A DNA stretch of 64,000 bases from an uncultured Methanosarcinales archaeon (GCA_964556395.1 CAZKVR010000004.1:9025-73024); one strand, 5' to 3'; shown: positions 512 through 58,255, counted from the first letter of the stretch. Made by a program: numbers and translations. The notes: generated by a model from the letters alone, not told the origin.

Positions 512-762
512 GACATCACCAAAATATGAACATTCGAATTTTATTATTTATTATTATAATATTATGATTAAATATATATAAAATTTTCGGTTTGTTCGGA
601 ATATGCCCGCATCAGAACGAAAACAATTACCCGAACTATTTAATTTTTTCCAAAATAAATACATAATTACCAATAATAATTATAATTGAAAAAAGTATAT
701 ATAATTTTCCGGATATATCCATAACCATTCCGGACACCAACGGAAAAACGGAGGCGAACCCC
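512..762. promoter_or_regulatory. Very A/T-rich divergent promoter spacer between two regulator genes
   Basis: This 250-bp spacer is the most A/T-rich tract in the window. It has several TATA-like runs, a GGATATATCC palindrome at 711-720 and TCCGGA repeats. Confidence 0.6.
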
Positions 763-1233
763 ATGAAAGACAAGGACCTGCTACTCATCAGCCACCTGCG
801 CAAGGACGCACGGACCCCGATGACGACCATCAGCAAGAACACCCGCATACCGGTCAGCACGATCTTCGACAAGCTCAAGACGTACAAGGACAACGTCATC
901 GACAAGCACACCTGCCTCCTCAACTTCAAGGAACTCGGCTACGAGGTGAAAGCCCACCTCCTCTTCAAAGTGCAAAAAGAACAACGCGAAGACTTCCTCA
1001 TGTACATCCGGACGCACGGCAGCACGAACAACATCTTCAGGGTCAACAACGGCTACGACTACCTCGTCGAAGCGGTCTTCAGGAACCTACACGAACTGCA
1101 GGAGTTCTACGAGGAGACAGAACAACGAGGAGCGGAAGACAAGCAAGAACACTTCGTACTGGAAGACGTGGCGCGAGAACAATTCCTCAACCACACACCA
1201 GGGTTCGAGATCATGAACGGACTACGAAAGTGA
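763..1233 (+). CDS. Lrp/AsnC family transcriptional regulator
   Basis: It has an N-terminal HTH (DLLLISHLRKDARTPMTTISKNTRIPVSTIFDKLK) followed by a RAM-like ligand domain. The size, 156 aa, is typical of the family. Confidence 0.85.
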   Translation: MKDKDLLLISHLRKDARTPMTTISKNTRIPVSTIFDKLKTYKDNVIDKHTCLLNFKELGYEVKAHLLFKVQKEQREDFLMYIRTHGSTNNIFRVNNGYDYLVEAVFRNLHELQEFYEETEQRGAEDKQEHFVLEDVAREQFLNHTPGFEIMNGLRK

Positions 1234-1375
1234 CGGAAGGAATCCGGACAACAAAGAGAGAAGCCGGAACGACTACGGAAAACACGTAGAAAGGCAGTTT
1301 AAAACGAGACCCCCGACGTAGAGGGAGAAGACAACAACACCAGAGGTACGAGAGCGATATCAAAAGGAGATAAGT

Positions 1376-2314
1376 ATGGAAGACCAAATAAAAGACGACA
1401 AACAGCTATTTGGAAACCATAGGGAATTCCGTTATATAATCACGCAAGCATGCAACTACGACTGCTTCTTCTGTCACCAGGAAGGAATATCAGAAAACCA
1501 GAAACCAGCACTTGATGCAGATGATTACAAATTCTTTTTCACAACGACGAAGAAGCATTTTGGGTCGACAACCACCACTATCAGCGGCGGAGAACCACTC
1601 ATTCGCAAAGACATCGTAGATATCACAAGAAAGCTCCAAGAAGAAGGAGCAGACACCACCATACTCACAAACGGATACCTCCTCGACAATAATATGGATA
1701 TTGGAAACCATATCAAAAGACTTAACGTATCAATCCATAGCCTAGAAAAAAATCAATACGAAGACATAGTAAGGACAGAGAACACATACGAAAAAGCAAT
1801 CCAGAACATCCGCGAATTCAGAGAAAATCATCCAAATGTTGAGGTGAGAATAAACACCGCGTTCGTCAAGGATGTTAACACATCCCCCGAACAAGTACAA
1901 CAATACCTCAACTTTGCCAAAGATATAGAAGCATCCATTAAATATATGGAAATCTATCCTAAAAATAACGAGGTTTACGAGCCGCTCGAAAAATTAGAAT
2001 CAATATTAGAAGACAAAGGATATCACTTCAAAAAGAACATCTCTAGGAAGAAGATATACAGCAAGGATGGATTTGACGTACACATAACAAAAATATTCTG
2101 CTCATCAGCAAGTGAACAAGAAAACCCCGCCGAATACTGCAAGAGAGAGAACGACATCTTCATCACACCAGAAGGATTCCTCAAACCTTGTAGAAACAAC
2201 GATTCACAAAATAACGTAAGAAACGAGACAAAACAACGGAATGAGAGCAAGCTCGTTGAAAAAATATCTGAGACAATCAACAACATCGGAGAAAAATGTT
2301 ACTTGTGCAGGTAA
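1376..2314 (+). CDS. Radical SAM enzyme, MoaA/twitch-like
   Basis: It carries the CNYDCFFC cluster motif (CxxxCxxC), a GGEPL motif, and C-terminal cysteines (FCSS..YCK..KPC..CYLC) suggestive of an auxiliary cluster. A GGAG SD lies 6-7 nt before the ATG. Codons are lower in GC than in neighbouring genes. Confidence 0.8.
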   Translation: MEDQIKDDKQLFGNHREFRYIITQACNYDCFFCHQEGISENQKPALDADDYKFFFTTTKKHFGSTTTTISGGEPLIRKDIVDITRKLQEEGADTTILTNGYLLDNNMDIGNHIKRLNVSIHSLEKNQYEDIVRTENTYEKAIQNIREFRENHPNVEVRINTAFVKDVNTSPEQVQQYLNFAKDIEASIKYMEIYPKNNEVYEPLEKLESILEDKGYHFKKNISRKKIYSKDGFDVHITKIFCSSASEQENPAEYCKRENDIFITPEGFLKPCRNNDSQNNVRNETKQRNESKLVEKISETINNIGEKCYLCR

Positions 2315-2320
2315 AAAAAA

Positions 2321-3553
2321 ATGAGGCTGGCGATAAGAGGAGGGGAAAAAACAGTCAAAAAACGAGAATCACATTACACCTGGCCAAAAATCACGGAGAA
2401 AACAAAAAAAGCCGTGATCAGTCAGTTAGAAGAGAGCATATCAATCTATGACCGATCAGGGATAATAAAAAGATTTGAAGATAAATTCGGAGAATATCAT
2501 GGACGACAATACGCGCTTCTTACGAATTCAGGAACTTCAGCTATACACTCACTTTTCACAGGCGCAAACCTCAAAAAGAATGACGAGATAATCATTCCAG
2601 CATATACGTTTCACGCCACAGCCACACCATTATTCTTCACAGGAGCCAACCCCGTTCTCGTTGATAGCGACAGGAACGGAAACATCGACCCCAATAAGAT
2701 TGAGGACTCTATCAATAGGAGAACAAAAGGCATCATGATAACGCACATGTGGGGGCAACCCTGCGAGATGGATAAAATCAACACCCTAGCCAAGAAACAT
2801 GGACTTGAATTATATGAAGATTGTTCCCACGCTCACGGAGCCACATACCAAGGAAAGAAAGTAGGAAAATTCGGAAGAGCGGCAGCCTTCAGCCTTCAAG
2901 GGAAAAAGACCATCAGTGGTGGAGAAGGAGGAATTCTCATAACAGATGACAAGGAGTTGTATCACAACGCATTGATGTTCGGACACTATAACAAACGATG
3001 CAAACAAGAAATACCACAAAATAACTTTTGGTATGATTTCGCTGTGACAGGTATGGGATTAAAATTGAGAGCCCACCCACTTGCCGTCGCTATCGCAGAA
3101 GAACAGTTCAACAACATCGACGAGATTCTCGAAGGACGAAGAAAAACCGCAGAACATCTTTCGGAAGAACTCGAAAAACTTCCTGGAATTACAACACCAA
3201 AAATAAGAGAGGGCAAAGCATCGTGGTACGCATTCGTCATGCAATACCAACCGCAAGAACTCGACAATTTACCAATAGAGAAATTCTACGCAGCATTGAA
3301 AGCAGAAGGATGCGAAGAAATAGACAGACCAGAATCAACAGGACCCCTCAACTACCAGCCATTGTTCCAGAAACCAGAAATACTCTTCCCCGACTACAAA
3401 GGACCACGATATAAACCAGGCGACTTTCCCCAAGCAGAACATTTTTATAAAAACGCCCTAAAACTACCAGTCTGGGAAACACAAGAAAGTATTATAGAAG
3501 ATTATATACAGGCCATTAAAAAAGTCGTCAATAATTATAAACAAATAATATAG
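2321..3553 (+). CDS. DegT/DnrJ/EryC1/StrS-family PLP-dependent aminotransferase
   Basis: The sequence shows SGTSAIH, the FSLQGKKTISGGEGG lysine motif, and the length and layout of sugar or aminocyclitol aminotransferases. Confidence 0.85.
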   Translation: MRLAIRGGEKTVKKRESHYTWPKITEKTKKAVISQLEESISIYDRSGIIKRFEDKFGEYHGRQYALLTNSGTSAIHSLFTGANLKKNDEIIIPAYTFHATATPLFFTGANPVLVDSDRNGNIDPNKIEDSINRRTKGIMITHMWGQPCEMDKINTLAKKHGLELYEDCSHAHGATYQGKKVGKFGRAAAFSLQGKKTISGGEGGILITDDKELYHNALMFGHYNKRCKQEIPQNNFWYDFAVTGMGLKLRAHPLAVAIAEEQFNNIDEILEGRRKTAEHLSEELEKLPGITTPKIREGKASWYAFVMQYQPQELDNLPIEKFYAALKAEGCEEIDRPESTGPLNYQPLFQKPEILFPDYKGPRYKPGDFPQAEHFYKNALKLPVWETQESIIEDYIQAIKKVVNNYKQII

Positions 3554-3562
3554 GTGAAACCA

Positions 3563-4087
3563 ATGATTGAACTTGAGAAGACCTTTTTGGCAAGAAACAT
3601 ACCTGAGAACATAAGAACATGTGAAAAGAAAGAAATAATCGACATATACATCCCGAAAGAAGAAAAACACCCTCGGCTACGCGTACGGAAAAATGGCGAC
3701 AAATACGAGATGACAAAAAAACTACCTTTAGACAACTCAGACGCCTCGAGACAAGAAGAAACAACCATCAACCTCACAGAGAAAGAATTCAAAGCCCTTG
3801 AGAGAATAGAGGGAAAAAAAGTGAAAAAGACCAGGTATTATTACCCTCACGAAGGGCAAATCGCAGAGATAGATATCTTTGAAGAAGCACTAGAAGGACT
3901 CGTTGTAATTGACTTTGAATTTGCCACCATCAAAGCACAAGAATCATTCCAAATGCCAGAATTCTGTCTGGCAGACATTACCCAAGAAGACTTCATAGCA
4001 GGAGGAATTCTTGCTGGCAAGAGCTATAAAGATATAAACAGCGAACTTGAGAAATTCAACTATAAGAAGCTGACAACACCAAAGTAG
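3563..4087 (+). CDS. CYTH-domain (triphosphate tunnel metalloenzyme) protein
   Basis: The N-terminus has the ExExK-like motif (MIELEKTFL), a later RVRKNGDKYEMTKK segment, and the size of CyaB/ThTPase-like proteins. I chose the ATG at 3563, preceded by AGGTGA, over the track's GTG at 3554. Confidence 0.7.
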   Translation: MIELEKTFLARNIPENIRTCEKKEIIDIYIPKEEKHPRLRVRKNGDKYEMTKKLPLDNSDASRQEETTINLTEKEFKALERIEGKKVKKTRYYYPHEGQIAEIDIFEEALEGLVVIDFEFATIKAQESFQMPEFCLADITQEDFIAGGILAGKSYKDINSELEKFNYKKLTTPK

Positions 4088-4448
4088 AAAGATTAAACCA
4101 AAAAACAACACCTCCAAGCGGCGACGGAACTGCTCAACTTCTAGAAGATATTATGGAAGAAACAGAAAAGTATAAAAAAACAATACAATATCTGAAACAT
4201 CATGCGAGGAACAACCACACAAAGTGATTGCCGGTGGCCACGCCACGTTCTCTAAGATAGCATCCTCGCTGTCACGACAACAAACCCTCTTCAAGCTCCT
4301 CTGCCTAGAGGACAAGCTCATCGTGTTCTGGCGCTGACGAGTTCTACAACAAACACGAACCAATTTGCGCCGACAGTAGAGGTGCGAGTGAAGGAACACC
4401 CCTCACAAAATTATCAAGAACGCAAAAAAAACATCAGAGGCTTACACG

Positions 4449-5255
4449 ATGAAACGAGAACAAAGCATGGAGCGACTCCTCATAGGAGCATACAAGATAG
4501 ATATCATAGACGAACCTCGGAAGACGCTGACGAAGGCAGAGCTCGACCAGCTAGGAACGGCAGCCATCCCAATCGTCAGGAAAGGGTTTCGGAACGACAA
4601 CATCACAGAAAGCGACATCCGGACGCACGCGCTTGACGTCGACACCGGCATCTACATCAGAGGAGAAGACGGAGAACTCATCGGCTTCGGAGGAAGCGGC
4701 CTGGAAGAGATCGACGGAAGGAGCGTCGTACACCTCAAAGGAGCGGCAATACTCCCAGAATACCAAGGAAAAGGACTGTACAACATCCTCACACCACTCC
4801 GAGCAATCCGAGAAGCGGAGAAGAATGGACCGGAAGTGTACGTCGGTACCAGAACCCAAAACCCGCGCGTGTTCGAATACATGACCGGAAAGCTAGGACT
4901 ACACCCGCACATCAACGAGGCACCGGCGAAAGACTTGGAAGACCTGGCGGAGAGCTACGCACAGCTCGTCCGCGACAAGCACAGCGACTTCAGATCACGA
5001 GAAGGAGCAGGGTTCGAGAAGGACACCTTCGTCGTCAAGAGAGCCTACGGCTTCATCGATAAACAAGGAGTGGAAAGAGGCTTCTGCATGTACGGCGACA
5101 ACCTCCCGCACGCGAAAGACAAGAACATAGACGACTACCTGAACAAGAACCTCGACTTCGACAACGGCGACGCGATGATACTCATCGGAAGGCACGACGA
5201 GGAAAGATGCGCGAGAGCATACCAGCAAGGCATAGAACGCCTCAAACAAGCATGA
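4449..5255 (+). CDS. GNAT-family N-acyltransferase-like protein
   Basis: It has the acetyl-CoA motif A-like string LPEYQGKGLY. A TATA-like AAATTATCAAG lies about 35 nt upstream. Confidence 0.6.
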   Translation: MKREQSMERLLIGAYKIDIIDEPRKTLTKAELDQLGTAAIPIVRKGFRNDNITESDIRTHALDVDTGIYIRGEDGELIGFGGSGLEEIDGRSVVHLKGAAILPEYQGKGLYNILTPLRAIREAEKNGPEVYVGTRTQNPRVFEYMTGKLGLHPHINEAPAKDLEDLAESYAQLVRDKHSDFRSREGAGFEKDTFVVKRAYGFIDKQGVERGFCMYGDNLPHAKDKNIDDYLNKNLDFDNGDAMILIGRHDEERCARAYQQGIERLKQA

Positions 5256-5295
5256 GGAAAAAGTATAAGAACAACGACAGCAAGACAGATGCAAC

Positions 5296-6123
5296 ATGAC
5301 ACTCCAACTCGAGAACAGCGAAATCATCACTAAAGACAGCGGCCGGTCAGGCCCGCACCTCGTCATCATAGGAGGGGTCCACGGCGACGAGCACTGCGGA
5401 GTACGAGCCATCGAGGACCTTGCGCCGACGTTCCAGCCGGACAAGGGTGAGGTGACGTTCATCATCGCGAACAAGAAAGCCCTCGCCCAGGACGTCCGGT
5501 TCGTCGAGAGCAACCTGAACCGGGCGTTCAACACCGACCAGCCAAAAACGCTCGAAGAACGGACAGCAGCCCAGCTCAAGCCACTCCTGGACGAGGCGGA
5601 CGCACTCCTAGACCTCCACGCCAGCAACACGGAAGGCTCGGAGCCGTTCGCTATCTGCGACGACCGGAGCGTGGACGCCGCCAAGTCGCTGCCCGTCCTC
5701 AGGATAGTCACTGGCCTGCAAGAAGGACACCCAGGCAGCACCGACGAGTATGTGAACAGGCAAGGCAAGACGGGCGTGTGCGTGGAGTGCGGCTACACGA
5801 AGGACCTCGAAGGCACGACCGCAGTGGCGAAACAAGCCATAAAAGAGTTCTGCACCAGCCAAGGAATCCTCGAAGGACAAACGACAAGGAGAGACGTCCC
5901 AGTCCTCAAGGCCGACAAGCACTACAAGAACAAACACGACACGTTCAAGCCGGCGAAGGAGTTCAAGGACTTCCAAAAGCTCAAGAAAGGAGAACTCATC
6001 GGACACGACGGCGACGAGGAAGTCCGGGCGGCCGAAGACAGCCGCATACTCTTCGTCCGGGAAACACAAGAGAAAGGCAAGGAATGCTTCCTCATCGCAC
6101 GACGACATGAGAAACACATTTAA
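5296..6123 (+). CDS. Succinylglutamate desuccinylase/aspartoacylase (AstE/AspA) family zinc hydrolase
   Basis: It has the GGVHGDEHCG zinc motif, NLNRAF, and LDLHAS. A TATA (AAAGTATAAGAAC) is centred 28 nt upstream of the ATG. Confidence 0.8.
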   Translation: MTLQLENSEIITKDSGRSGPHLVIIGGVHGDEHCGVRAIEDLAPTFQPDKGEVTFIIANKKALAQDVRFVESNLNRAFNTDQPKTLEERTAAQLKPLLDEADALLDLHASNTEGSEPFAICDDRSVDAAKSLPVLRIVTGLQEGHPGSTDEYVNRQGKTGVCVECGYTKDLEGTTAVAKQAIKEFCTSQGILEGQTTRRDVPVLKADKHYKNKHDTFKPAKEFKDFQKLKKGELIGHDGDEEVRAAEDSRILFVRETQEKGKECFLIARRHEKHI

Positions 6124-6148
6124 GCAACCACCAACCAGAACATCCAAC

Positions 6149-6739
6149 ATGGCACGAGACCAACCACCAAACCTCATCCTAGCAACCACTTCCGCCAGGG
6201 AGAAAAAAGCGTTCGAACAGCTCCACGTACCGTCCGAGGCGGTGGAGAGCGAGGTCGACGAAACAACGTACAGGACCGACGACCCAGACATCCTCGTCGC
6301 CGAATTGTCCAAGCGCAAAGCACGAGAGGTGGCCGGGAAGCACCGCAAGAAGACTATCATAGCTACGCATACCGTCGGCCACCACCGCAGGGACATCCTC
6401 GAGCAACCCCTGACCAAGGAGCGGGCCCGGCGCAAGCTGCAGGAACTGTCAGGCGAGACCCACGAAGTCCTGACAGGAGTCACCGTCATCCGAGAAGGAA
6501 TAGAAAAGACGGAGGTCGTCACGACCACGGTCGCGTTCAGGGAACTAGGCGACGAGGAGATTGACGCCTACCTCGAAGAGGACAACCAAGCAGTCAAACG
6601 AACGCTTGGGTACGACCCGCTCAAGCACCGGAGCGCGACATTCATCAAAGCCATCGAAGGCAGCCCGCACAACCTCCTCTCAGGCATGCCGTTGGAGACC
6701 GTCAAGGAGATGCTCGAGAATAAAATGTCTAAGGACTAG
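6149..6739 (+). CDS. maf: Maf-like nucleoside triphosphate pyrophosphatase
   Basis: The overall Maf layout is present (LILATTSAREKKAFEQL..., SGETHEVLTGVTV). The start is moved to the ATG at 6149, 29 nt after ACATTTAAGCA. The track start at 6107 overlaps the upstream gene. Confidence 0.75.
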   Translation: MARDQPPNLILATTSAREKKAFEQLHVPSEAVESEVDETTYRTDDPDILVAELSKRKAREVAGKHRKKTIIATHTVGHHRRDILEQPLTKERARRKLQELSGETHEVLTGVTVIREGIEKTEVVTTTVAFRELGDEEIDAYLEEDNQAVKRTLGYDPLKHRSATFIKAIEGSPHNLLSGMPLETVKEMLENKMSKD

Positions 6740-6743
6740 AGGC

Positions 6744-6911
6744 TCACCACACGATGAGCGCGACTATGACGAGCAATAGTCCGAGGCCGACGCCGCCCCA
6801 CGCGACCTGCTGGTAGAGCGTGATGGACTCGAAATAGGATATTATCTTCTCCCAGGTGTCGGTGAACCATTGCTGGACCTTCTCGAGCGAGATGTCGACC
6901 GTCTTCGCCAT
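6744..6911 (-). CDS. Small membrane protein (55 aa), unannotated in the track
   Basis: It translates as MAKTVDISLEKVQQWFTDTWEKIISYFESITLYQQVAWGGVGLGLLLVIVALIVW. G/C-ending codons match the host style and there is a C-terminal TM helix. It fills an otherwise empty 210-bp gap. Confidence 0.5.
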   Translation of the reverse strand: MAKTVDISLEKVQQWFTDTWEKIISYFESITLYQQVAWGGVGLGLLLVIVALIVW

Positions 6912-6949: not shown

Positions 6950-8047
6950 CTAGAAGAGGTGGAGCTCCAAGATGTCACCGTCCCGGAGGCCGTGGTGGAG
7001 CATGTGCTTCTGGCCGGGGAACTTGGCCGACTTCCCCCAGACGCGGGAGTAGCGGAACCGCTTGACGAAATCCTTGTGGAGCTTCCGGCACACATCCCTG
7101 ATGGTGGAGCCCTTCGGCATGATGAGCGGCTCCTCCAGGTCGGCGTCCTTGTTCGGCTCCTTCATGAAGATACGGATGAGATCGAGCTTCTCGAAAATGA
7201 GCTCTTTGAGGTCCTCCAGATGGTCGCGCTTCTGAGCGCTGACGAGCATGTCGGCATCCAACTCACGACCGACGGCCTCGGCCCGCTCCGACGACACCTG
7301 GTCGACCTTGTTGACGACGGTGATGGCGGGTACGTAGTGCTTGTTACCCTCGATCACGTCGATGAGCTGGTCGGCGGAGATGTCATCCCTGATGACGACG
7401 TCGGCGTTGTTGATGCGGAACTCCTTGAGGATGCTCTCGATCGTCTCGTCATCGAGCCTGGTCAAGCGGCACGTCTTGCCGATCTTGATGCCATCCTTGC
7501 TCGTCTTGCGGATCTTCACGACAGGGGGACGCTCGTTCACCCTGATGTGGGCGTCCCGGACCTCCTTCAACAGGATGTCCTTGTGCTCGGGGTGGTGGAC
7601 GTCCACCAACAATAGTATGAGGTCAGCGTTACGCAACACGGAGAACACCTCGGTGCCGCGGCCCTTGCCGGAAGCCGCGCCGTGGACGACGCCGGGGACG
7701 TCCAACACCTGTATGCGGGCGTGGGCGTACTCCATCATGCCAGGGATGACATGGAGGGTTGTGAAGGCGTAGCTCCCCACCTCGCTCTCAGCGTTGGTCA
7801 GGCCGTTGAGCAAGGTGCTCTTGCCCACGGACGGGAAGCCGAGGAGGACGACGGTGCCGTCGCCGGTCTTCCGCACGCTATAGCCGCCGCCGGACGCGGC
7901 GGAGCCAGCCCTACGGGCCTCCTCCTTCTCCTTCAAGCGGGCGAGCTGGGCCTTGTACAGGCCTATGGCATGCTGTGTCCGCTTGTTGTACTGGCTGTTG
8001 CTGATGAGGTCCTCCAACTCCTTGATACGCTCCTCAGTGCTCGCCAT
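6950..8047 (-). CDS. DRG/Obg-family GTPase with C-terminal TGS domain
   Basis: It has GFPSVGKST (G1), DVPG (G3), NKVD (G4) and a TGS-like tail. The start is trimmed to MASTEERIKELE, 26 nt downstream of a GTTAAAAACG box. Confidence 0.9.
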   Translation of the reverse strand: MASTEERIKELEDLISNSQYNKRTQHAIGLYKAQLARLKEKEEARRAGSAASGGGYSVRKTGDGTVVLLGFPSVGKSTLLNGLTNAESEVGSYAFTTLHVIPGMMEYAHARIQVLDVPGVVHGAASGKGRGTEVFSVLRNADLILLLVDVHHPEHKDILLKEVRDAHIRVNERPPVVKIRKTSKDGIKIGKTCRLTRLDDETIESILKEFRINNADVVIRDDISADQLIDVIEGNKHYVPAITVVNKVDQVSSERAEAVGRELDADMLVSAQKRDHLEDLKELIFEKLDLIRIFMKEPNKDADLEEPLIMPKGSTIRDVCRKLHKDFVKRFRYSRVWGKSAKFPGQKHMLHHGLRDGDILELHLF

Positions 8048-8091
8048 ACCGAGGAAGGGGAGAAGACTCGTTTTTAACACTTGCGCCGGAC

Positions 8092-9045
8092 TCAGAACCA
8101 GTCGTGTCGCCGGAAGTACCATACGAGGAAGACGACGCTGAGGATGATGACCCCCCATGCGAAGAGGTAGCCGTACTTCCACGAGAGTTCGGGCATGAAA
8201 CGGAAGTTCATACCGTACAGGCCGGTGATGAACGTGGGCAAGAGGATTATAGTGCCGTACGCGGCCATCTTCTTCATGACAGCGTTCATGTTGAGGCTCA
8301 CGGATGAGAGGTAGATGTCAAGGGTTCCGGTGAGGATGTCCCTGTAGGTGGCGACGACGTCGATGAGCTGGACCACGTCGTAATAGAGCTGGCTGAGACG
8401 CTTCCGGACGGGGTGCTTGATGTGCCTCACCTCCTCATCCTTCTGGAGGTTGACGAGGACGTCCCGGTTGGCCGACAACGACTTGTGGAAGTAGATGAGC
8501 GTCCGCTTCAAGGAGAAGATGCGCTTGACGGTCCGCTGGTCGGGCTTGGAGAACACGGAATCCTCTATCCTATCGATGTGGTCTTCGACCTCATTGAGGC
8601 GGGTGAAGAAGTCCCCGATGATACTCTCGAGAAGCCTGTAGAACAGGCTGCTCGTACCCTCCTTCAAGACTGCTTGGAGGTCGTCGTCAGGCATGGCGAG
8701 CGTGTCGGAGATGCTCTTCACCTCGTCCTTGTGGAGAGTGATGAGGAGCCGCTCGCTGATGAGGAACGCGACTGCCGTGGTGGAGACGCCCTTGCCGTGG
8801 TTGGAGGTGCGCGGGCTGCGGCACACGACGACCGAGAAGTGTCCGGACTCGCCCACGCGCGGCAGCTCGTCGCGGTCGAGGAAGGTCTTGAGGTCGTGCT
8901 TGGGCAGCTTGACCAACGAAGCGACCTTTGTCAGGTCAGCTTCGGACGGGTTGTTGAGGTCGAGCCACTTGATGCGGTGATAGTCCATCCCCTCCAAGGA
9001 GGAGCGGTAGAGTCCGTGGCTGCCCGCCTCGAGAAGGATGGTCAT
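8092..9045 (-). CDS. corA: CorA-family magnesium/cobalt transporter
   Basis: The YGMNF signature is present, followed by two C-terminal TM helices. The start is set at MTILLEAG (9045), 27-28 nt from the TTTTTTATAT box at 9068-9077. Confidence 0.9.
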   Translation of the reverse strand: MTILLEAGSHGLYRSSLEGMDYHRIKWLDLNNPSEADLTKVASLVKLPKHDLKTFLDRDELPRVGESGHFSVVVCRSPRTSNHGKGVSTTAVAFLISERLLITLHKDEVKSISDTLAMPDDDLQAVLKEGTSSLFYRLLESIIGDFFTRLNEVEDHIDRIEDSVFSKPDQRTVKRIFSLKRTLIYFHKSLSANRDVLVNLQKDEEVRHIKHPVRKRLSQLYYDVVQLIDVVATYRDILTGTLDIYLSSVSLNMNAVMKKMAAYGTIILLPTFITGLYGMNFRFMPELSWKYGYLFAWGVIILSVVFLVWYFRRHDWF

Positions 9046-9152
9046 ACAACGCCTGTCGCCCGGAGGCATATAAAAAAGTTTATCCTCTCCCGAGAGTGAT
9101 GAAAAGGCAGAAGACAGAAACATTTAAATACGCGTCAGGGCATGGCAGGCAC

Positions 9153-10115
9153 ATGCACGTACGCACAGTCCTCATAGCACTAGGGATTCTCATCGCCCTC
9201 GGCGCAGGCGCGACATTCATCCAAGCGGACTCCCAGAACGGCGTCGACAGTGGTTCGTGCATCGACATAACAGGAAGCAAGAAGACGGCGTGCTACCAGC
9301 GCAGCGTGGAGTCGGAAGACGGCTTCGGAGCGGTAGAGCTGTGCGGCGACTGCTTCGCCTGCGGGTACGACGACGGCGTGTGCCCCGAAGACTTCACCTC
9401 GGACGGCGTGACCGCGAACTGCACGATGTGCCCAGACCCGGACTGCCTCGTCACCCTCGAAGGATACGTGTACGAGGAAGGCGGAAACCCTGCGGACGAC
9501 GGCATCAACGACGTCACCATCACGGCAGAACTCCCCCACACGGACACCCCGTTCACGACGACGACCGACTACAATTCCGACGATGGTCAGAACGGCTACT
9601 ACAGCTTCCAAGTGCCACGCGGAGACTACGAGTTCAGCTTCCAGAAAGACCCGTACGCCACCCAATACGCAGAGTTCCCACTCGAAGGCTCAGAACCCTA
9701 CGAGAAAGACGTGGAACTCAATTATCCGAGCTGCAACGCAGACCCGACATGCACGATGGACACAGCCCTCGGCCCCAGGTGCGACGCGAGCTGCGACGGG
9801 AAGAAAGGGTGCGACTACCCCTCAGGCACGTACACCGGCGGCGATTACGGCGACATCGTCTACGACCTCGCCGTGAACTGCTCGGGCAAGTCACCCTCGC
9901 GGAACATCTTCCTCGGACTCATCAACGAGACCCACCAATTGAGAGGCACGTGCTGCGACGGCGCGGTCCAAGCGGTGTTCAGGCCGAAAGCCAAGGTTGA
10001 CACGAACGTGACGAACATCGTGGTGGAGGAGGACGGCGGGCCGCTCATCAACGACAGGGGAGAAGTGGAAGAGCCGTACGTGAAGGTCAAGTACTACTTC
10101 TACAAGAAGGACTGA
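9153..10115 (+). CDS. Secreted or membrane-anchored Cys-rich protein with a carboxypeptidase-regulatory-like beta-sandwich segment
   Basis: The N-terminus is hydrophobic (MHVRTVLIALGILIALGAGA). I count 17 cysteines. The segment LEGYVYEEGG..YYSFQVPRGDYEFSF resembles CarboxypepD_reg. TTTAAATA at 9123-9130 lies 26-27 nt upstream of the ATG at 9153. Confidence 0.7.
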   Translation: MHVRTVLIALGILIALGAGATFIQADSQNGVDSGSCIDITGSKKTACYQRSVESEDGFGAVELCGDCFACGYDDGVCPEDFTSDGVTANCTMCPDPDCLVTLEGYVYEEGGNPADDGINDVTITAELPHTDTPFTTTTDYNSDDGQNGYYSFQVPRGDYEFSFQKDPYATQYAEFPLEGSEPYEKDVELNYPSCNADPTCTMDTALGPRCDASCDGKKGCDYPSGTYTGGDYGDIVYDLAVNCSGKSPSRNIFLGLINETHQLRGTCCDGAVQAVFRPKAKVDTNVTNIVVEEDGGPLINDRGEVEEPYVKVKYYFYKKD

Positions 10116-15980: not shown

Positions 15981-17009
15981 ATGGCACTCGACTTCCTCAC
16001 CGACATCGGACGCGCGTTCGTGCCCAAGCGGTTCCGGCCGAACCTGCGCAGCTACCTCTTGATGGCGGGCTATGACGAGGTCCCTTACAAGTTCTTCGGA
16101 GGGTTGTTCTTCAGCACCATCTTCGTGACGATCGTGACCCACTTCGCCGCTATCCAGCCGTTGATCCAGGATCGGAGCCTTCTCATCATAGGCTTGACGG
16201 CGTTCGGGTTCATCGCAGGGGTCGCGTTGATATTGAGCGCGCTCATCATCCTCGGGATATATTTCTTCCTCAACATCAAGATCTACAACCGTACGAAGAG
16301 GCTCGAGGACAAGCTGGTGGACTACCTGACGTTGGTGAGCACGAACCTGAAGGGCGGCATGTCGTTCGAGAAGTCGTTGTGGGTGTCCATCAAGCCGGAC
16401 TTCGGGATATTGGCGAAGGAGATAGGCTTGGTGTCGAAGAAGGTGATGACGGGCAATGACCTGACCGAGGCTTTGATCGAGTTCTCGATGAAGTACGACT
16501 CTCCCATCCTGCGACGGAGCATGAACCTCATCATCGGCGAGGTTGAGAGCGGCGGGCGCGTCGTCGAGGTTATCGACAAGGTGATCCAGAACCTGCGCAA
16601 GACGCGGATGCTGAAGGACGAGATGGCCGCTTCGACGGTGACGTACATGATATTCATCGGCGCGATCGTCATGGTGATCAGCCCGGCATTGTTCGCGTTG
16701 TCGGCGCAGCTCCTACAGGTCGTGATAGGGTTCACGGGCAAGATCAGCGGTAGCATCGGCGGCGCGGCTGCGGGTTTCTTGCCGATCAGCATCAACGAGG
16801 TGAGCATCGACCCCAAACAGTTCGTCTGGTTCTCGCGAGGGGCGATCGCTTCTATCGCCGTGTCGTCGGCGTTCATAGTCAGCATCATCGAGAAGGGCAA
16901 CATCAAGAGCGGGCTCAAGTACGTCCCGTTGTTCCTCCTCGTCAGCCTCGTAGTCTACACCATCCTCAACGAGGTGTTGTCGGGCGTGTTCGCGGGCATC
17001 ATGGGTTGA
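15981..17009 (+). CDS. T2SSF-domain membrane protein (TadB/TadC/FlaJ-like), second of two
   Basis: Its architecture matches the previous gene. Together the two resemble a split FlaJ/PilC platform protein. Confidence 0.75.
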   Translation: MALDFLTDIGRAFVPKRFRPNLRSYLLMAGYDEVPYKFFGGLFFSTIFVTIVTHFAAIQPLIQDRSLLIIGLTAFGFIAGVALILSALIILGIYFFLNIKIYNRTKRLEDKLVDYLTLVSTNLKGGMSFEKSLWVSIKPDFGILAKEIGLVSKKVMTGNDLTEALIEFSMKYDSPILRRSMNLIIGEVESGGRVVEVIDKVIQNLRKTRMLKDEMAASTVTYMIFIGAIVMVISPALFALSAQLLQVVIGFTGKISGSIGGAAAGFLPISINEVSIDPKQFVWFSRGAIASIAVSSAFIVSIIEKGNIKSGLKYVPLFLLVSLVVYTILNEVLSGVFAGIMG

Positions 17010-17174
17010 GAGCCGTTCGGGGTTTCATCCTTGCAGGGCGTCAGGTATTCCTTTGCTATAGAAGGTAGAGAAAAAGAATAAAAAAAGCTCCCGGGGCTTG
17101 GGTGGTTGTTAGGGGTGGGGGAGTTAGGTGGTTTTTGACCAGAAGTCAAAAAGCCGCCGGGAGCCTTGTGAGCG

Positions 17175-17603
17175 TCATGATTTCATGGTGAGCTGTCGTG
17201 GGGGTTTGCGTATCTCCTGGAGCCACATGAGGCCTATCTTCATCATGTTCTTGTTGAACTTCTCGCTGACCTTGTAGGTCTTCTTGTACAGGTCGTAGTC
17301 GATGAGGCCCATGGTCTTCATCGGGGTGAGGATGCGGTCGTAGAACTGCCGCTTGTTGTAGCTGAGCTTGACCTTCTGCTTCTTGGCGACGGGTCCGCGC
17401 TCGTCCTTGGCCTCGATGATGGTCCCTTCGTGGAGGGAGGTGGCGAACATGGACATCTCTGTCTTGCCGATCTCGCCGTCCTTCGCTTTCATCTGCTCGA
17501 GCAGCAGCTGTGCTACCATGACCTGCTGTTTCGTCGCGAAGATGATCTCGAAGATGCTCTCCGGCATGTTGAACTGGTCGAACAGGATGACCATGTAGGG
17601 CAC
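17175..17603 (-). CDS. Hypothetical protein
   Basis: It has host-like codon usage. An ATTTATATAT box at 17623-17632 lies upstream. The in-frame ATG at 17594 is an alternative to the GTG at 17603. Confidence 0.55.
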   Translation of the reverse strand: MPYMVILFDQFNMPESIFEIIFATKQQVMVAQLLLEQMKAKDGEIGKTEMSMFATSLHEGTIIEAKDERGPVAKKQKVKLSYNKRQFYDRILTPMKTMGLIDYDLYKKTYKVSEKFNKNMMKIGLMWLQEIRKPPRQLTMKS

Positions 17604-17785
17604 AATACCCCTACCGATATATAAATGTTTCGATTTGTATACGTATTAGTATACTGAGAGCCCTTATACATACGGCTTTTCAGACATATTTCACAACGAG
17701 ACCCTGCACCTTCAAAACACGCCAACAGGTAAAGCACAAAAAAGAAGGCTTAAAAAACCCCACTCCTCAAAATAAGAAAAGCACC

Positions 17786-26852: not shown

Positions 26853-27092
26853 GTAGTGACCCTCACAAAAAAAGCTGATTTTCGTATAAGGGGAGGGGGA
26901 TTTCCACACTGATTTATAAGGTTTGTTGTTTTATAGCAAAATAAGAGGAAAACAAGACAACAAGAGGCAGATGCAGACAACCCCCACGTCCAAAGGAACC
27001 ACGAGAAGACACAAACAACCAGAAGACAGACCCCATAGGAACACCCCAACATATAAAAACGGGAAACACCACGGAACAATAGGTGAACGACA

Positions 27093-27374
27093 ATGATACA
27101 CGAAGACAGGAAGCAATTGACCGCCAAAACGCTCGACCTCAAACGAGCCCTCGACTCACTGAAAGAAGAGCTTGAAGCCACGGACTGGTACAACCAACGA
27201 GCAGACGCGTGCACAGACGAGAACCTCAAGAAGATCCTGCTCCACAACGCAGCCGAAGAGAAAGAACACGCAGCCATGCTCATCGAATGGATCCGAAAGC
27301 ACGATACCGAGTTCGAGGGCGAGTTGAAAGAATACCTCTTCTCAGACAAAGAAGACATCACGCACCACGAGTAA
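27093..27374 (+). CDS. Small ferritin-like protein resembling encapsulated ferritin (EncFtn)
   Basis: It is 93 aa. ELEATDWYNQRA...HNAAEEKEHAAMLIEWIRKHD carries the ExxH di-iron half-site pattern of EncFtn/rubrerythrin-like two-helix proteins. Confidence 0.6.
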   Translation: MIHEDRKQLTAKTLDLKRALDSLKEELEATDWYNQRADACTDENLKKILLHNAAEEKEHAAMLIEWIRKHDTEFEGELKEYLFSDKEDITHHE

Positions 27375-27550
27375 AAACAAGATGTCTTTAGAAAAAAAAA
27401 CAACTTTTTTCTTACAGATTCTCCTCACCCCACAACCACTATTATACCAAGAAAAACTCTAGAACCACAACCACACGAGCACCCGTGAACAAGACGCAAA
27501 CACTTAAAAAAGACAGTGATAAAGGAGAGAAGAAGAGGTGAACACACACC

Positions 27551-58178: not shown

Positions 58179-58255
<77 letters not shown>

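What the first reader, a model, noticed from the sequence alone, without database searches (positions are those of the whole stretch)
763..4448. Lower-GC, SD-led cassette of radical SAM, DegT aminotransferase and CYTH next to an Lrp regulator
Genes 1376-2314, 2321-3553 and 3563-4087 are separated by only 6 and 9 nt, so they look like one operon. They use mainly A/T-ending codons (AAA, GAA, ATA, AAT), whereas almost every other gene in the window prefers AAG, GAG, ATC and AAC. The first gene has a leader of about 70 nt and a GGAG SD, in contrast to the leaderless layout elsewhere. Together these point to foreign origin. The radical SAM protein has CNYDCFFC plus C-terminal cysteines, a possible auxiliary (twitch/MoaA-like) cluster. 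A radical SAM oxidoreductase paired with a DegT aminotransferase recalls the BtrN/BtrS logic of 2-deoxystreptamine-type aminocyclitol or amino-sugar synthesis. A CYTH triphosphate-tunnel enzyme added to that pair is not a combination I recognise. The product could be a modified sugar, aminocyclitol or nucleotide-derived small molecule, for surface glycans or a conflict function. That is inference only.
Basis: partly seen in the sequence, partly recalled or inferred. Interest (0 to 1): 0.7.

Follow-up and report, generated by a model that had tools for sequence, protein, structure and literature searches.

The report
Radical-SAM aminonucleotide cassette in Woesearchaeote
A small, low-GC three-gene operon in a DPANN archaeon most likely converts an ordinary nucleotide into an amino-sugar nucleotide analogue (a potential chain terminator), using a MoaA-derived radical SAM enzyme where known pathways such as puromycin's use an NAD-dependent dehydrogenase; neither this enzyme family nor the cassette appears to have been described.

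Summary
Genes 1376-2314 (radical SAM), 2321-3553 (DegT aminotransferase) and 3563-4087 (CYTH) are 6 and 9 nt apart. They lie in a ~3 kb low-GC island (GC3 0.41-0.46 versus 0.76±0.10 for other ORFs) in a Woesearchaeote.

The radical SAM protein is not MoaA. It belongs to a rare family (~100 clusters among 1.84 billion representatives) with a MoaA-like fold and four conserved C-terminal cysteines. In about 40 related core-family loci this gene almost always sits next to a nucleotide phosphohydrolase gene (NUDIX, HD or CYTH) and often next to pyrimidine-nucleotide kinase genes. In about half it is adjacent or fused to the same DegT subfamily. The same three-gene order recurs in a CPR bacterium (L021).

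That DegT subfamily more often pairs with a GFO/IDH/MocA dehydrogenase plus NUDIX and kinase genes, the layout of the puromycin/ADG 3'-aminonucleoside module (Pur10-Pur4-Pur7).

Best reading (confidence about 0.55): the radical SAM enzyme oxidises a ribose hydroxyl of an NTP, DegT aminates the ketone, and CYTH removes phosphates. Chemistry, substrate and biological role are inferred, not shown. NDP-sugar and aminocyclitol substrates remain possible. I class it as a new variant of a known kind.

The parts
1250..4400 (.). Low-GC island holding the cassette; approximate boundaries taken from the GC profile.
   Evidence: GC is 0.37-0.45 here against a window mean of 0.568. GC3 z-scores are -3.2 to -3.7. 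No tRNA, integrase or convincing flanking repeats were found.
1298..1304 (+). TATA-like box TTTAAAA, a putative archaeal promoter element for the operon (inferred).
   Evidence: Read directly from the sequence. It lies 78 nt upstream of ATG 1376, whereas similar boxes at other window genes lie about 25-35 nt upstream of the start codon.
1364..1369 (+). Shine-Dalgarno-like AAGGAG for the first gene.
   Evidence: Read directly from the sequence.
1376..2314 (+). MoaA-derived radical SAM enzyme (312 aa). It has CX3CX2C at C26/C30/C33 and four conserved C-terminal cysteines (C242, C255, C272, C308). Proposed nucleotide ribose dehydrogenase (inferred).
   Evidence: PF04055 scores 72 bits. moaA_archaeal scores 147 bits against a cutoff of 325. 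The family is sharply separated from true MoaA. The AF2 model has pLDDT 88.7 and the best PDB fold match is MoaA at TM 0.72.
2321..3553 (+). DegT/DnrJ/EryC1/StrS-family PLP aminotransferase (410 aa) with the Schiff-base lysine retained (SLQGKK...GGEGG).
   Evidence: PF01041 scores 263 bits, and no NCBIfam equivalog cutoff is reached. It is 56-57% identical to radical SAM-linked DegTs of other DPANN archaea and 46-51% to the DegT domains of radical SAM-DegT fusions. It is 58-59% identical to DegTs whose GFO-dehydrogenase linkage was verified and 50-55% to GFO-linked metagenome copies.
3563..4087 (+). CYTH / triphosphate-tunnel (NeuTTM-like) phosphohydrolase (174 aa; an alternative in-frame GTG start lies at 3554). 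Proposed to remove phosphates from the modified NTP (inferred).
   Evidence: phmmer against the PDB hits NeuTTM 2fbl/3typ at E = 5e-10, and a profile gives 3.3e-14. ExExK and the tunnel acidic and basic residues are invariant in four cassette-linked homologues. Homologues follow the radical SAM gene directly in L023 and L038, and follow radical SAM and DegT in L021. AGGTGA lies upstream of ATG 3563.
763..1233 (+). Lrp/AsnC-family regulator with host-type composition; a neighbour and possible regulator, not shown to belong to the cassette.
   Evidence: PF01037 scores 26 bits and TranRegLrp_Halo 37 bits. GC3 is 0.79. No Lrp homologue was found in any related locus, although other regulators (an ArsR-type HTH protein, HTH_3, LysR) do neighbour relatives.

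Best explanation
Genes 1376-4087 form a horizontally acquired operon that tailors a nucleotide.

Step 1 (inferred): the MoaA-derived radical SAM enzyme abstracts a ribose hydrogen, most likely H-3' as MoaA does on GTP. It then oxidises the hydroxyl-bearing carbon of a nucleoside triphosphate to a ketone. Its fully cysteine-ligated auxiliary [4Fe-4S] cluster would act as electron acceptor, as in BtrN-type radical SAM dehydrogenases. The substrate is probably a pyrimidine NTP such as CTP.

Step 2 (inferred from the family): the DegT-family PLP aminotransferase converts the keto-nucleotide to an amino-deoxy-nucleotide.

Step 3 (inferred): the CYTH triphosphate-tunnel enzyme removes phosphates from the product. 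This either detoxifies a chain-terminating amino-NTP in the producer or matures it towards the nucleoside.

The cassette is therefore a radical SAM/CYTH version of the Pur10 (NAD dehydrogenase) - Pur4 (aminotransferase) - Pur7 (Nudix) module. That module makes the 3'-amino-3'-deoxynucleoside core of puromycin, A201A, cystocin and 3'-amino-3'-deoxyguanosine (ADG).

Shown here: the operon structure, the compositional anomaly, the family assignments, the recurrent gene linkage and fusions, and the radical SAM/GFO-dehydrogenase swap. Inferred: the substrate, the regiochemistry, the order of steps and the biological role (antibiotic or antagonistic nucleoside, or antiviral chain terminator).
For: 1. 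The radical SAM protein is not MoaA but a distinct family.
- It scores 147 bits against a cutoff of 325 for moaA_archaeal, and PF06463 is absent.
- Scores drop from at least 115 bits to at most 85 bits at the boundary with true MoaA. There are about 100 clusters among 1.84e9 representatives.
- The fold is closest to MoaA (TM 0.72). Other sequence or fold relatives are DesII, AbmM, BlsE and viperin-like enzymes, which by their entry descriptions and my own knowledge act on nucleotide, nucleoside or NDP-sugar substrates.
- Four C-terminal cysteines are conserved in the core family. The fourth is absent from the MoaA-like outgroup, and the first is not conserved there.

2. Gene context.
- In about 40 independent core-family loci the radical SAM gene is next to a NUDIX, HD or CYTH gene in nearly all.
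- Fusion proteins exist: radical SAM-NUDIX (P0268), radical SAM-HD (P0241), radical SAM-DegT (P0213, P0283 and at least 14 genomic loci) and (d)CMP kinase-radical SAM. P0231's kinase domain passes the cmk equivalog cutoff, 140.7 against 135.55.
- Accessory genes are dTMP-kinase-like, UMP kinase, NDK-like, PfkB, NT5C 5'-nucleotidase, and EamA or MFS exporters.

3. The three window domains co-occur elsewhere: L021 has radical SAM, DegT and CYTH in the same order. L025 has the radical SAM-DegT fusion followed by NUDIX, CYTH and NUDIX.

4. Swap evidence.
- The window DegT is 58-59% identical to DegTs verified to sit in GFO_IDH_MocA - DegT - (Tmk-like) - (amidinotransferase) - NUDIX cassettes, and 50-55% identical to further GFO-linked copies.
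- Woesearchaeotal loci L179 (GFO version) and L019 (radical SAM version) share the DegT, Tmk-like, amidinotransferase and NUDIX genes and differ in the oxidoreductase.
- In a rough NJ tree, DegTs linked to either partner form one subfamily that retains the catalytic lysine.

5. Precedent. [quoted passage not shown] The adgA-E low-GC operon is proposed to oxidise GTP at 3', dephosphorylate and aminate it, and ADG-TP blocks RNA elongation (PMC9239236).
Against: - There are no biochemical data for any member, so substrate and product are unknown.
- By sequence, the DegT is about equally distant from NDP-sugar and aminocyclitol aminotransferases: QdtB 158 bits, perosamine synthase 150 bits, BtrR-type about 130 bits.
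- The GFO partner in sister cassettes is closest to 3q2k/3q2i (WlbA-type NDP-sugar 3-dehydrogenases, by my recollection) and to inositol dehydrogenases.
- About half of the radical SAM family cassettes have no DegT nearby. That is awkward if the radical SAM product is always an unstable keto-nucleotide. Those clades may do different chemistry, for example viperin-like dehydration.
- By my recollection of MoaA's triphosphate-binding residues, the MoaA residues K69 and R71 align to threonines in the window protein.
- Direct similarity of these proteins to Pur10, Pur4 or Pur7 was not tested because no sequences were available here.
- The window cassette lacks a kinase, a monophosphatase and an exporter.
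- The amidinotransferase in DPANN relatives also fits the streptidine (aminocyclitol) pathway logic.
Confidence: 0.55

Rival explanations
1. Same cassette logic but different radical chemistry. The radical SAM enzyme would be a dehydratase of the BlsE, DesII or viperin type that makes a deoxy-keto (or didehydro) nucleotide, which DegT then aminates. The product would be an amino-dideoxy nucleotide rather than a simple amino-deoxy one.
For: BlsE, DesII and viperin-like enzymes are among the closest sequence and fold relatives. NCBIfam viperin_w_prok scores 81 bits and PADLOC pVip 82 bits over the radical SAM core. Kinase fusions mirror the pVip-kinase pairing. Clades of the family that lack DegT need a stable radical SAM product.
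Against: The one-for-one replacement of an NAD-dependent dehydrogenase in otherwise matching cassettes argues for net two-electron oxidation, not dehydration. Four conserved auxiliary-cluster cysteines fit an electron-accepting cluster. To my knowledge viperins have no auxiliary cluster.
Confidence: 0.15
2. An amino-sugar pathway acting on an NDP-sugar for a cell-surface glycan. It would involve C-3 or C-4 oxidation followed by transamination, as in WbpB/WbpE, GnnA/GnnB or DesI/DesII, with the phosphohydrolase acting on the NDP-sugar.
For: The best NCBIfam and PDB matches of the DegT are NDP-sugar aminotransferases such as PseC, QdtB and perosamine synthase. The GFO partner in sister cassettes matches 3q2k/3q2i (WlbA, by my recollection) and the archaeal UDP-GlcNAc 3-dehydrogenase model. 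To my knowledge NUDIX enzymes can hydrolyse NDP-sugars.
Against: None of these matches reaches a curated cutoff. Apart from one GT8 gene upstream in L054 (a divergent Saccharibacteria-group locus), no glycosyltransferase, sugar nucleotidyltransferase, flippase or sugar dehydratase/epimerase was seen among the annotated neighbours in about 45 neighbourhoods. The neighbours are instead NMP kinases, NUDIX/HD/CYTH genes, NT5C and exporters. (d)CMP kinase is fused to the radical SAM domain.
Confidence: 0.12
3. An aminocyclitol or guanidino-cyclitol pathway with streptidine- or 2-deoxystreptamine-like logic: dehydrogenase or BtrN-like radical SAM enzyme, DegT aminotransferase, kinase, amidinotransferase, phosphatase.
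For: As I recall the streptidine pathway, L179's gene set (GFO - DegT - kinase - amidinotransferase - phosphohydrolases) maps one-to-one onto its first half-cycle. The amidinotransferase matches StrB1 at E = 8e-47. The GFO partner's best NCBIfam hit is inositol 2-dehydrogenase at 105 bits. To my knowledge, BtrN replacing an NAD-dependent dehydrogenase is the classic precedent in 2-DOS pathways.
Against: The kinases are P-loop NMP kinases (dTMP-, CMP- and UMP-kinase types), not aminoglycoside-type kinases. The phosphohydrolases are of NUDIX, HD, CYTH and NT5C types. No inositol-phosphate synthase or glycosyltransferase was seen. The window cassette has no amidinotransferase or kinase. The closest relatives of the radical SAM protein act on nucleotide-type substrates.
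Confidence: 0.1
4. An ordinary MoaA (molybdenum cofactor synthesis) that merely happens to lie next to unrelated aminotransferase and CYTH genes.
For: The best NCBIfam hit is moaA_archaeal and the best structural match is MoaA.
Against: The score is less than half the equivalog cutoff, and PF06463 is absent. The auxiliary motif is CX12CX16C plus a fourth cysteine, instead of CX2CX13C as I recall for MoaA. No conserved arginine pair occupies the R266/R268 position, and there is no C-terminal GG. The linkage and fusions with DegT, NUDIX, HD and CMP kinase are conserved across phyla.
Confidence: 0.02

Closest known systems
Pur10-Pur4-Pur7(-Pur3) 3'-aminonucleoside module of puromycin, A201A and cystocin, and AdgB-E of Photorhabdus (3'-amino-3'-deoxyguanosine)
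   Same: The three-step logic on an NTP is the same: oxidise a ribose hydroxyl, transaminate, hydrolyse the triphosphate (PMC11641026, PMC9239236). Sister cassettes of the window's DegT subfamily have a matching domain set, GFO-type dehydrogenase + DegT + NUDIX with or without an MFS exporter. The ADG operon is also a small low-GC island.
   Different: In the window the NAD-dependent dehydrogenase is replaced by a radical SAM enzyme and the Nudix hydrolase by a CYTH enzyme. There is no monophosphatase, exporter or downstream tailoring gene. The accessory kinases in relatives are pyrimidine-type, whereas the known pathways start from ATP or GTP. Direct sequence similarity to Pur4, Pur7 or Pur10 was not tested. 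That Pur10 belongs to the GFO/IDH/MocA family and Pur4 to the DegT family rests on my own knowledge, plus the RifL similarity noted in PMC11641026.
BtrN / BtrR(S) in butirosin 2-deoxystreptamine synthesis
   Same: A radical SAM dehydrogenase with an auxiliary cluster feeds a DegT-family aminotransferase, and it substitutes for an NAD-dependent dehydrogenase used in sister pathways (established knowledge). The analogous swap is seen here between L019 and L179. BtrR-type aminotransferases match the window DegT at about 130 bits.
   Different: No BtrN entry appears among the PDB sequence hits at E <= 0.001 or among the top 50 Foldseek matches. The scaffold is MoaA-like and the inferred substrate is a nucleotide rather than a cyclitol.
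MoaA (GTP 3',8-cyclase)
   Same: It is the closest fold (TM 0.72) and the best HMM match. The two share CX3CX2C, GGEPL, the NxSxH region, R17/R19 and a C-terminal iron-sulfur cysteine cluster. MoaA abstracts H-3' of an NTP (established knowledge), which suggests the site of attack here.
   Different: The protein scores below all MoaA equivalog cutoffs and lacks PF06463. Cysteine spacing differs and a fourth conserved cysteine is present. There is no R266/R268 pair, no GG tail and no Moco genes nearby, and the gene context is entirely different.
Viperin / prokaryotic viperins with CMPK2-type kinases
   Same: Both are radical SAM enzymes that modify NTP ribose, and both are linked or fused to a cytidylate kinase. 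The product of both would be a chain-terminating nucleotide.
   Different: The viperin_w_prok model scores 81 bits against a cutoff of 180 and matches the core only. The family has an auxiliary cluster that, to my knowledge, viperins lack. It is coupled to an aminotransferase and to phosphohydrolases.
BlsE/BlsH (blasticidin S) and DesII/DesI (desosamine)
   Same: These are radical SAM enzymes paired with PLP aminotransferases that act on a cytosine nucleoside or an NDP-sugar (pairing from established knowledge). BlsE and DesII appear among the sequence and fold hits.
   Different: They perform dehydratase, decarboxylase or deaminase chemistry on hexose moieties, and the homology is distant (E = 1.5e-5 for BlsE, over the core only).
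NeuTTM (NE1496) and other CYTH triphosphate-tunnel metalloenzymes
   Same: Sequence homology over about 140 residues, the ExExK motif and conserved tunnel residues.
   Different: Pfam's CYTH model does not detect the protein. It has a C-terminal extension of about 30 aa. The substrate is unknown; to my knowledge NeuTTM is specific for inorganic triphosphate. The cassette context is new.

Membership tests
Radical SAM superfamily | CX3CX2C motif and a PF04055 match above the gathering score. | tested here: met
   C26/C30/C33 are invariant. PF04055 scores 71.9 bits against a cutoff of 29.5.
MoaA (GTP 3',8-cyclase) | Score above the curated equivalog cutoffs (TIGR02668, TIGR02666, NF001199). | tested here: not met
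   Scores are 147/325, 108/284 and 132/231 bits (score/cutoff).
MoaA (GTP 3',8-cyclase) | C-terminal Mob_synth_C domain (PF06463). | tested here: not met
   PF06463 is absent from the window protein and from the roughly 31 close family members, but present in the true MoaA hits.
MoaA (GTP 3',8-cyclase) | Auxiliary cluster bound by three cysteines (CX2CX13C) with an open iron site, guanine-binding R266/R268, and a C-terminal Gly-Gly. The motif is from my knowledge of S. aureus MoaA; R17, R266 and R268 are named in the title of PDB 2fb2. | tested here: not met
   The family motif is C242-X12-C255-X16-C272 plus a conserved C308. N259 and D260 occupy the place of the arginine pair. C-termini vary and lack GG.
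MoaA (GTP 3',8-cyclase) | Overall fold. | tested here: met
   Foldseek's best hits are 2fb2 and 1tv7 at TM 0.72-0.73, using a model with pLDDT 88.7.
Viperin / pVip | Score above the viperin_w_prok cutoff, with a match to the viperin C-terminal domain. | tested here: not met
   The score is 81 bits against a cutoff of 180, and only residues 20-172 align. PADLOC pVip scores 82 bits over residues 20-182.
BtrN-type (twitch) radical SAM dehydrogenases | Detectable homology to BtrN. | tested here: not met
   No BtrN entry is among the PDB sequence hits at E <= 0.001 or the top 50 Foldseek matches.
BtrN-type (twitch) radical SAM dehydrogenases | Works like one: an auxiliary cluster fully ligated by cysteines, a DegT aminotransferase partner, and interchangeability with an NAD-dependent dehydrogenase. 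| tested here: inconclusive
   Four conserved C-terminal cysteines, DegT linkage and fusions and the GFO swap are all consistent with this. Cluster ligation and activity cannot be tested in silico.
DegT/DnrJ/EryC1/StrS aminotransferases | A PF01041 match and a retained Schiff-base lysine (as opposed to the histidine of the ColD/E1 dehydratases). | tested here: met
   PF01041 scores 263 bits. The SLQGKK-TISGGEGG motif has lysine conserved in all cassette-linked homologues. No specific equivalog (PseC, LegC, WecE, ArnB, DesI, RfbH) reaches its cutoff.
CYTH / triphosphate tunnel metalloenzymes | N-terminal ExExK motif and conserved acidic and basic tunnel residues. | tested here: met
   The protein starts M-I-E-L-E-K. 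E3, E5, R40, R42, K52, K53, E102, D104 and E119 are invariant in four homologues.
CYTH / triphosphate tunnel metalloenzymes | Significant sequence homology to an established member. | tested here: met
   NeuTTM 2fbl/3typ matches at E = 4.9e-10 with the single sequence and 3.3e-14 with a profile.
CYTH / triphosphate tunnel metalloenzymes | A match to Pfam PF01928, and an eight-stranded beta-barrel tunnel fold. | tested here: inconclusive
   PF01928 gives no hit for the window protein or its three close homologues. The AF2 run was made without an alignment and gave pLDDT 37, which is unusable.
Pur10-Pur4-Pur7 aminonucleoside module | An NAD-dependent (GFO/IDH/MocA-type) NTP 3'-dehydrogenase. | tested here: not met
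   No GFO gene is in the window. A radical SAM gene occupies that position. Sister cassettes of the same DegT subfamily do carry GFO_IDH_MocA.
Pur10-Pur4-Pur7 aminonucleoside module | A DegT-type aminotransferase orthologous to Pur4. | not tested
   The family-level match is met. Neither Pur4 nor AdgC sequences were available for direct comparison.
Pur10-Pur4-Pur7 aminonucleoside module | A Nudix NTP pyrophosphohydrolase (Pur7). | tested here: not met
   The window has a CYTH gene instead. NUDIX genes occupy this slot in most related loci.
Pur10-Pur4-Pur7 aminonucleoside module | The product is a 3'-amino-3'-deoxynucleotide or nucleoside. | not testable with these tools
   This requires enzymology or metabolomics.

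The most novel reading that the evidence does not exclude
The MoaA-derived family is a previously unrecognised class of radical SAM nucleoside-triphosphate dehydrogenases. The cassette would make 3'-amino-3'-deoxy pyrimidine nucleotides, chain terminators not known as natural products. In some DPANN relatives, which also carry an amidinotransferase, the products would be 3'-guanidino derivatives. In DPANN archaea, CPR bacteria and gut Clostridia these compounds would serve as a viperin-like antiviral defence or as an inter-microbial weapon.
Probability: 0.3. Interest if true: 0.85.

Novelty: new variant of a known kind. Interest (0 to 1): 0.62.

Why it matters
If the reading is right, it defines a new radical SAM activity: oxidation of an NTP ribose hydroxyl by an enzyme evolved from the MoaA scaffold. 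It would also be a second natural case, after BtrN, in which a radical SAM enzyme replaces an NAD-dependent dehydrogenase upstream of a DegT aminotransferase.

It would extend aminonucleoside biosynthesis, so far known from actinomycetes and Photorhabdus, to DPANN archaea, CPR bacteria and uncultured gut Clostridia. It predicts new pyrimidine amino- or guanidino-nucleosides with chain-terminating potential, useful as antibiotic or antiviral leads or as tools.

It also supplies a concrete, testable function for about 100 clusters of 'MoaA-like' proteins. Some of these may be mis-annotated in genomes that lack molybdenum cofactor pathways.

Tried and rejected
- Pfam and NCBIfam for the third gene gave no CYTH hit even at E <= 10. 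The assignment came only from phmmer and profile searches against the PDB.
- The AF2 run on the CYTH protein was submitted by mistake without its alignment.
- PADLOC gave only a partial pVip match for the radical SAM core and nothing for the other genes. The cassette is not a catalogued defence system.
- Mobile-element scars were looked for: no tRNA (the only one is tRNA-Val at 58179), no integrase, no convincing terminal repeats. A 15-nt exact direct repeat flanks the cassette, but it lies inside two coding genes and is probably chance.
- The viral contig scan found no true family member, only distant radical SAM cores at 23-31% identity. A phage origin is rejected.
- The downstream GNAT, AstE/AspA and Maf genes were tested as possible resistance or house-cleaning components, by analogy with puromycin acetyltransferase and hydrolase. 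They have host composition and do not recur in related loci, apart from AstE in one genome. They are rejected as cassette parts.
- PDB comparisons of the DegT and of the GFO partner were made to discriminate nucleotide, NDP-sugar and cyclitol substrates. They were not discriminating.
- Literature searches for the cassette, for radical SAM plus aminonucleoside, and for the PDB code 8WM2 found no description. Foldseek later identified 8wm2 as AbmM.
- The window's own genome was not found among the species-representative genomes. Host identity was inferred from a DRG GTPase instead.
- The bona fide MoaA reading is rejected; see the membership test.

Full report
**Observation.** The intergenic gaps are 6 and 9 nt. 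GC falls to 0.37-0.45 over about 1250-4400 against a window mean of 0.568. GC3 of the three genes is 0.455, 0.405 and 0.412, against 0.765 +/- 0.098 for 54 other ORFs (z = -3.2 to -3.7). AAA, GAA and ATA/ATT are preferred as stated, but AAC still outnumbers AAT, so that detail is wrong.

An AAGGAG lies at 1364-1369, and the only TATA-like box (TTTAAAA, 1298-1304) lies 78 nt upstream of ATG 1376. Many other window genes have such a box about 25-35 nt upstream of the start codon, which is the leaderless layout. An SD is not exclusive to the cassette: the host-GC Lrp gene has GGAGG, and about a third of window genes have SD-like motifs. No tRNA, integrase or convincing terminal repeat marks the island borders. 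The host is a high-GC Woesearchaeote: its DRG GTPase is 94-75% identical to proteins labelled Candidatus Woesearchaeota.

**The three proteins.**

Gene 1 matches Radical_SAM at 72 bits. Its best NCBIfam hits are the MoaA models, at less than half their cutoffs (147/325, 132/231, 108/284), followed by prokaryotic viperin (81/180). PADLOC gives only a partial pVip match over the radical SAM core. An AF2 model built on 27 homologues is confident (pLDDT 88.7). Its closest solved fold is MoaA (TM 0.72), followed by SuiB, DesII, AbmM (8wm2), BlsE and viperin-like enzymes. By sequence the PDB hits are AbmM, MoaA, BlsE and a viperin-like enzyme. Apart from SuiB, these relatives act on nucleotides, nucleosides or NDP-sugars, going by their entry descriptions and my own knowledge.

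Gene 2 is a DegT-family enzyme (263 bits) with the Schiff-base lysine retained. It reaches none of the curated equivalog cutoffs.

Gene 3 has no Pfam or NCBIfam hit. It is nevertheless homologous to the CYTH/triphosphate-tunnel enzyme NeuTTM (2fbl/3typ), at E = 5e-10 alone and 3.3e-14 as a profile of four cassette-linked homologues. It begins with ExExK, and its tunnel acidic and basic residues are invariant. A structure prediction for it failed because I submitted it without the alignment.

**A distinct radical SAM family.** Against 5.8 billion clustered proteins, gene 1 has about 31 relatives at 115-299 bits (at most 45% identity). Scores then drop to 85 bits or less, where proteins carrying the MoaA C-terminal domain PF06463 begin. 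A profile search of 1.84 billion representatives finds roughly 100 clusters before scores fall into the MoaA range. Invariant family residues include R19, CX3CX2C, GGEPL, N99/G100, NxSxH, N160, K189 and three C-terminal cysteines, C242, C255 and C272. A fourth cysteine, C308, is conserved across the core family. It is absent from a MoaA-like outgroup, where the first cysteine is also not conserved. The spacing is CX12CX16C, compared with CX2CX13C as I recall for MoaA, and no arginine pair occupies the R266/R268 position. Four cysteine ligands predict a closed auxiliary cluster suited to electron transfer, rather than MoaA's open, substrate-binding iron site. This is an inference.

**Gene neighbourhoods.** I examined about 45 independent loci from exact-protein look-ups and from a scan of species-representative genomes. 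They were annotated by seed searches and by Pfam and NCBIfam.
- The family occurs in Woesearchaeota, Pacearchaeota, Moraniibacteriota, a code-25 CPR bacterium, Saccharibacteria, Coxiellaceae, an alphaproteobacterium and many uncultured gut Clostridia, Bacillales and Muribaculaceae.
- In nearly every core locus the radical SAM gene is adjacent to a nucleotide phosphohydrolase gene (NUDIX, HD or CYTH).
- Frequent additional neighbours are nucleotide kinases (dTMP-kinase-like, a bona fide UMP kinase, NDK-like, AAA_28, PfkB), an NT5C 5'-nucleotidase, EamA or MFS exporters and, in one lineage, a NodU-type carbamoyltransferase.
- Fusion proteins make the links explicit: radical SAM-NUDIX (P0268), radical SAM-HD (P0241), radical SAM-DegT (P0213, P0283 and at least 14 genomic loci of about 715 aa) and (d)CMP kinase-radical SAM. 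In P0231 the kinase domain passes NCBI's cmk equivalog cutoff.
- The window's exact gene order recurs in L021: radical SAM 6001-6870, DegT 6955-8187, CYTH 8750-9223. L025 has the radical SAM-DegT fusion followed by NUDIX, CYTH and NUDIX.
- L023 and L038 have radical SAM followed by a 57% or 45% identical homologue of the window's CYTH.
- The Pfam-type CYTH of L024 and L025 shows no pairwise similarity to the window's NeuTTM-like CYTH. Two branches of the superfamily were therefore recruited.

The refutation criterion 'the three genes never co-occur elsewhere' is thus not met.

**The decisive comparison.** The window's DegT has many more close homologues than the radical SAM family has members: hundreds of clusters at 55-63% identity in DPANN, CPR, Anaerolineales and Nostocales. 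In every such locus I could read, the DegT gene is preceded by a GFO/IDH/MocA NAD-dependent dehydrogenase gene, and in all but one (where the contig ends just after DegT) NUDIX genes are nearby.
- L179/L180 (Woesearchaeota): GFO - DegT - Tmk-like - 362-aa protein - NUDIX - NUDIX.
- L177/L178 (Anaerolineales): NUDIX - GFO - DegT - MFS - AAA_28.
- L097-L099 (metagenomes): GFO - DegT, followed by NUDIX in L097 and L098.

The 362-aa protein is an amidinotransferase (SxtG, HsvA, AGAT and StrB1 at E = 4e-58 to 8e-47). It has E of about 1e-173 homologues in the radical SAM-type DPANN loci L001, L016 and L019. So L179 and L019, both Woesearchaeota, share the DegT, Tmk-like, amidinotransferase and NUDIX genes and differ in GFO versus radical SAM. 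This is a non-orthologous replacement of the oxidoreductase. In rough NJ trees, radical SAM-linked and GFO-linked DegTs form one subfamily. The window's radical SAM protein groups with the DegT-linked DPANN sequences. The likely donor is therefore another, low-GC, DPANN archaeon.

**Mechanistic reading.** A GFO-type dehydrogenase, a DegT aminotransferase and a Nudix hydrolase, with or without a phosphatase and an MFS exporter, make up the module that builds the 3'-amino-3'-deoxyribose of puromycin, A201A, cystocin and ADG.
- In Photorhabdus, the low-GC adgA-E operon is proposed to oxidise GTP at 3', dephosphorylate and aminate it. ADG triphosphate is incorporated by RNA polymerase and blocks elongation (PMC9239236).

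I therefore read the window cassette as a variant of that module. In it, a MoaA-derived radical SAM enzyme performs the oxidation. By analogy with MoaA's H-3' abstraction the site would be C-3', and by analogy with BtrN the closed auxiliary cluster would accept the electron. DegT then aminates the ketone, and CYTH replaces Nudix in removing phosphates. The kinases point to pyrimidine nucleotides, possibly CTP. The fusion of the radical SAM and DegT domains would make sense for channelling a labile keto-nucleotide.

None of the chemistry is demonstrated. My confidence is about 0.55 in this specific reading and about 0.75 that the cassette acts on a nucleotide-like substrate.

**Rivals and caveats.**
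- Sequence similarity does not discriminate the substrate. The DegT is about equally distant from NDP-sugar and cyclitol aminotransferases. The GFO partner is closest to 3q2k/3q2i (WlbA, by my recollection) and to inositol dehydrogenases.
- L179's gene set also maps, as I recall that pathway, onto the streptidine pathway.
- About half of the family's cassettes lack DegT, so some clades may perform different, for example viperin-like, chemistry.
- Against the glycan and cyclitol readings: apart from one GT8 gene upstream in the divergent Saccharibacteria-group locus L054, glycosyltransferase, nucleotidyltransferase and inositol-synthase genes were not seen among the annotated neighbours. NMP kinases, NT5C and NTP-type hydrolases are consistently present. 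CMP kinase is fused to the radical SAM domain.
- The bona fide MoaA reading fails every specific test.
- The family is absent from IMG/VR viral contigs and is not in PADLOC.
- The adjacent Lrp, GNAT, AstE/AspA and Maf genes have host composition and, apart from AstE in one genome, do not recur.

**Novelty.** Searches of PMC and bioRxiv found no description of this radical SAM family or of the cassette. I classify it as a new variant of a known kind: an aminonucleoside-type module with a radical SAM oxidoreductase and a CYTH hydrolase. Interest is moderately high, and the prediction can be tested directly in vitro.

Noticed in passing
L179:5449-6537, L001:4761-5849, L016:2784-3881, L019:6869-8002: A 362-aa protein with no precomputed Pfam hit is an amidinotransferase (SxtG, HsvA, AGAT and StrB1 at E = 4e-58 to 8e-47). 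It is conserved in both the GFO-type and the radical SAM-type DPANN cassettes. The implied product carries a guanidino group on the newly installed amine. No homologue is present in this window.
   Followed up: partly
window 1004-1018 and 4615-4629: An exact 15-nt direct repeat, ACATCCGGACGCACG, brackets the low-GC cassette. One copy lies inside the Lrp ORF and the other inside the GNAT ORF. It is probably chance, but it is the only exact repeat flanking the island.
   Followed up: no
window 4449-6739: Directly downstream of the cassette lie a GNAT-like acetyltransferase, an AstE/AspA-type deacylase and a Maf nucleotide pyrophosphatase. All have host-type GC3 (0.66-0.76). They recall puromycin acetyltransferase/hydrolase self-resistance and, to my knowledge, house-cleaning of modified NTPs. 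However, only AstE recurs, and only next to the radical SAM gene in L003/L018.
   Followed up: yes
L021:6001-9223 and L038:3109-4523: These CPR loci give higher identities when translated with genetic code 25 (TGA as a sense codon), which explains why their cassette genes appeared fragmented under code 11. L021 is labelled Peribacteria in the record.
   Followed up: partly
L041:98-5196 and L043: This Clostridia variant of the cassette has radical SAM - HD (348 aa) - dTMP/CMP-kinase-like - NodU/TobZ-type carbamoyltransferase - PfkB kinase. The gene set looks like a nucleoside-antibiotic cluster and is reminiscent of the kinase and carbamoyltransferase steps I recall from albomycin biosynthesis.
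   Followed up: no
P0229, P0252, P0237, P0351 (representatives): These proteins combine a full LysR regulator (HTH_1 + LysR_substrate) with a C-terminal radical SAM domain of this family. They are either real regulator-enzyme fusions or merged gene calls. Either way, a regulator is adjacent to the radical SAM gene, as the Lrp gene is in the window.
   Followed up: no
L046, L047, L048, L050, L054: A divergent subgroup, mostly Saccharibacteria (about 210 bits to the family HMM), lacks the auxiliary-cluster cysteines C255, C272 and C308, and some members also lack C242. Three of the five loci have NUDIX directly upstream of the radical SAM gene. The chemistry may differ.
   Followed up: no
L023:7553-8869 and L025:7904-8689 (minus strand): A second radical SAM gene lies next to the cassette in two Clostridia loci. 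L023 has a 438-aa protein with PF04055. L025 has a paralogue 30% identical to the window protein.
   Followed up: no
window 530-760: A very AT-rich (about 75% A+T) intergenic region lies upstream of the Lrp gene. It contains an AT palindrome (545-576) and repeated TTCCGGA-like motifs, and may hold divergent promoters or regulator-binding sites.
   Followed up: no
window 17001-18000, 27001-28000, 32001-33000, 42001-43000: Four further 1-kb bins have GC of about 0.49-0.50, well below the window mean of 0.57. They were not examined.
   Followed up: no
window 48245-48649: This is the only other NUDIX-like ORF in the window, with weak matches (E = 7e-07 at best) to the cassette-linked NUDIX proteins. 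It is far from the cassette and is presumably a housekeeping gene.
   Followed up: no
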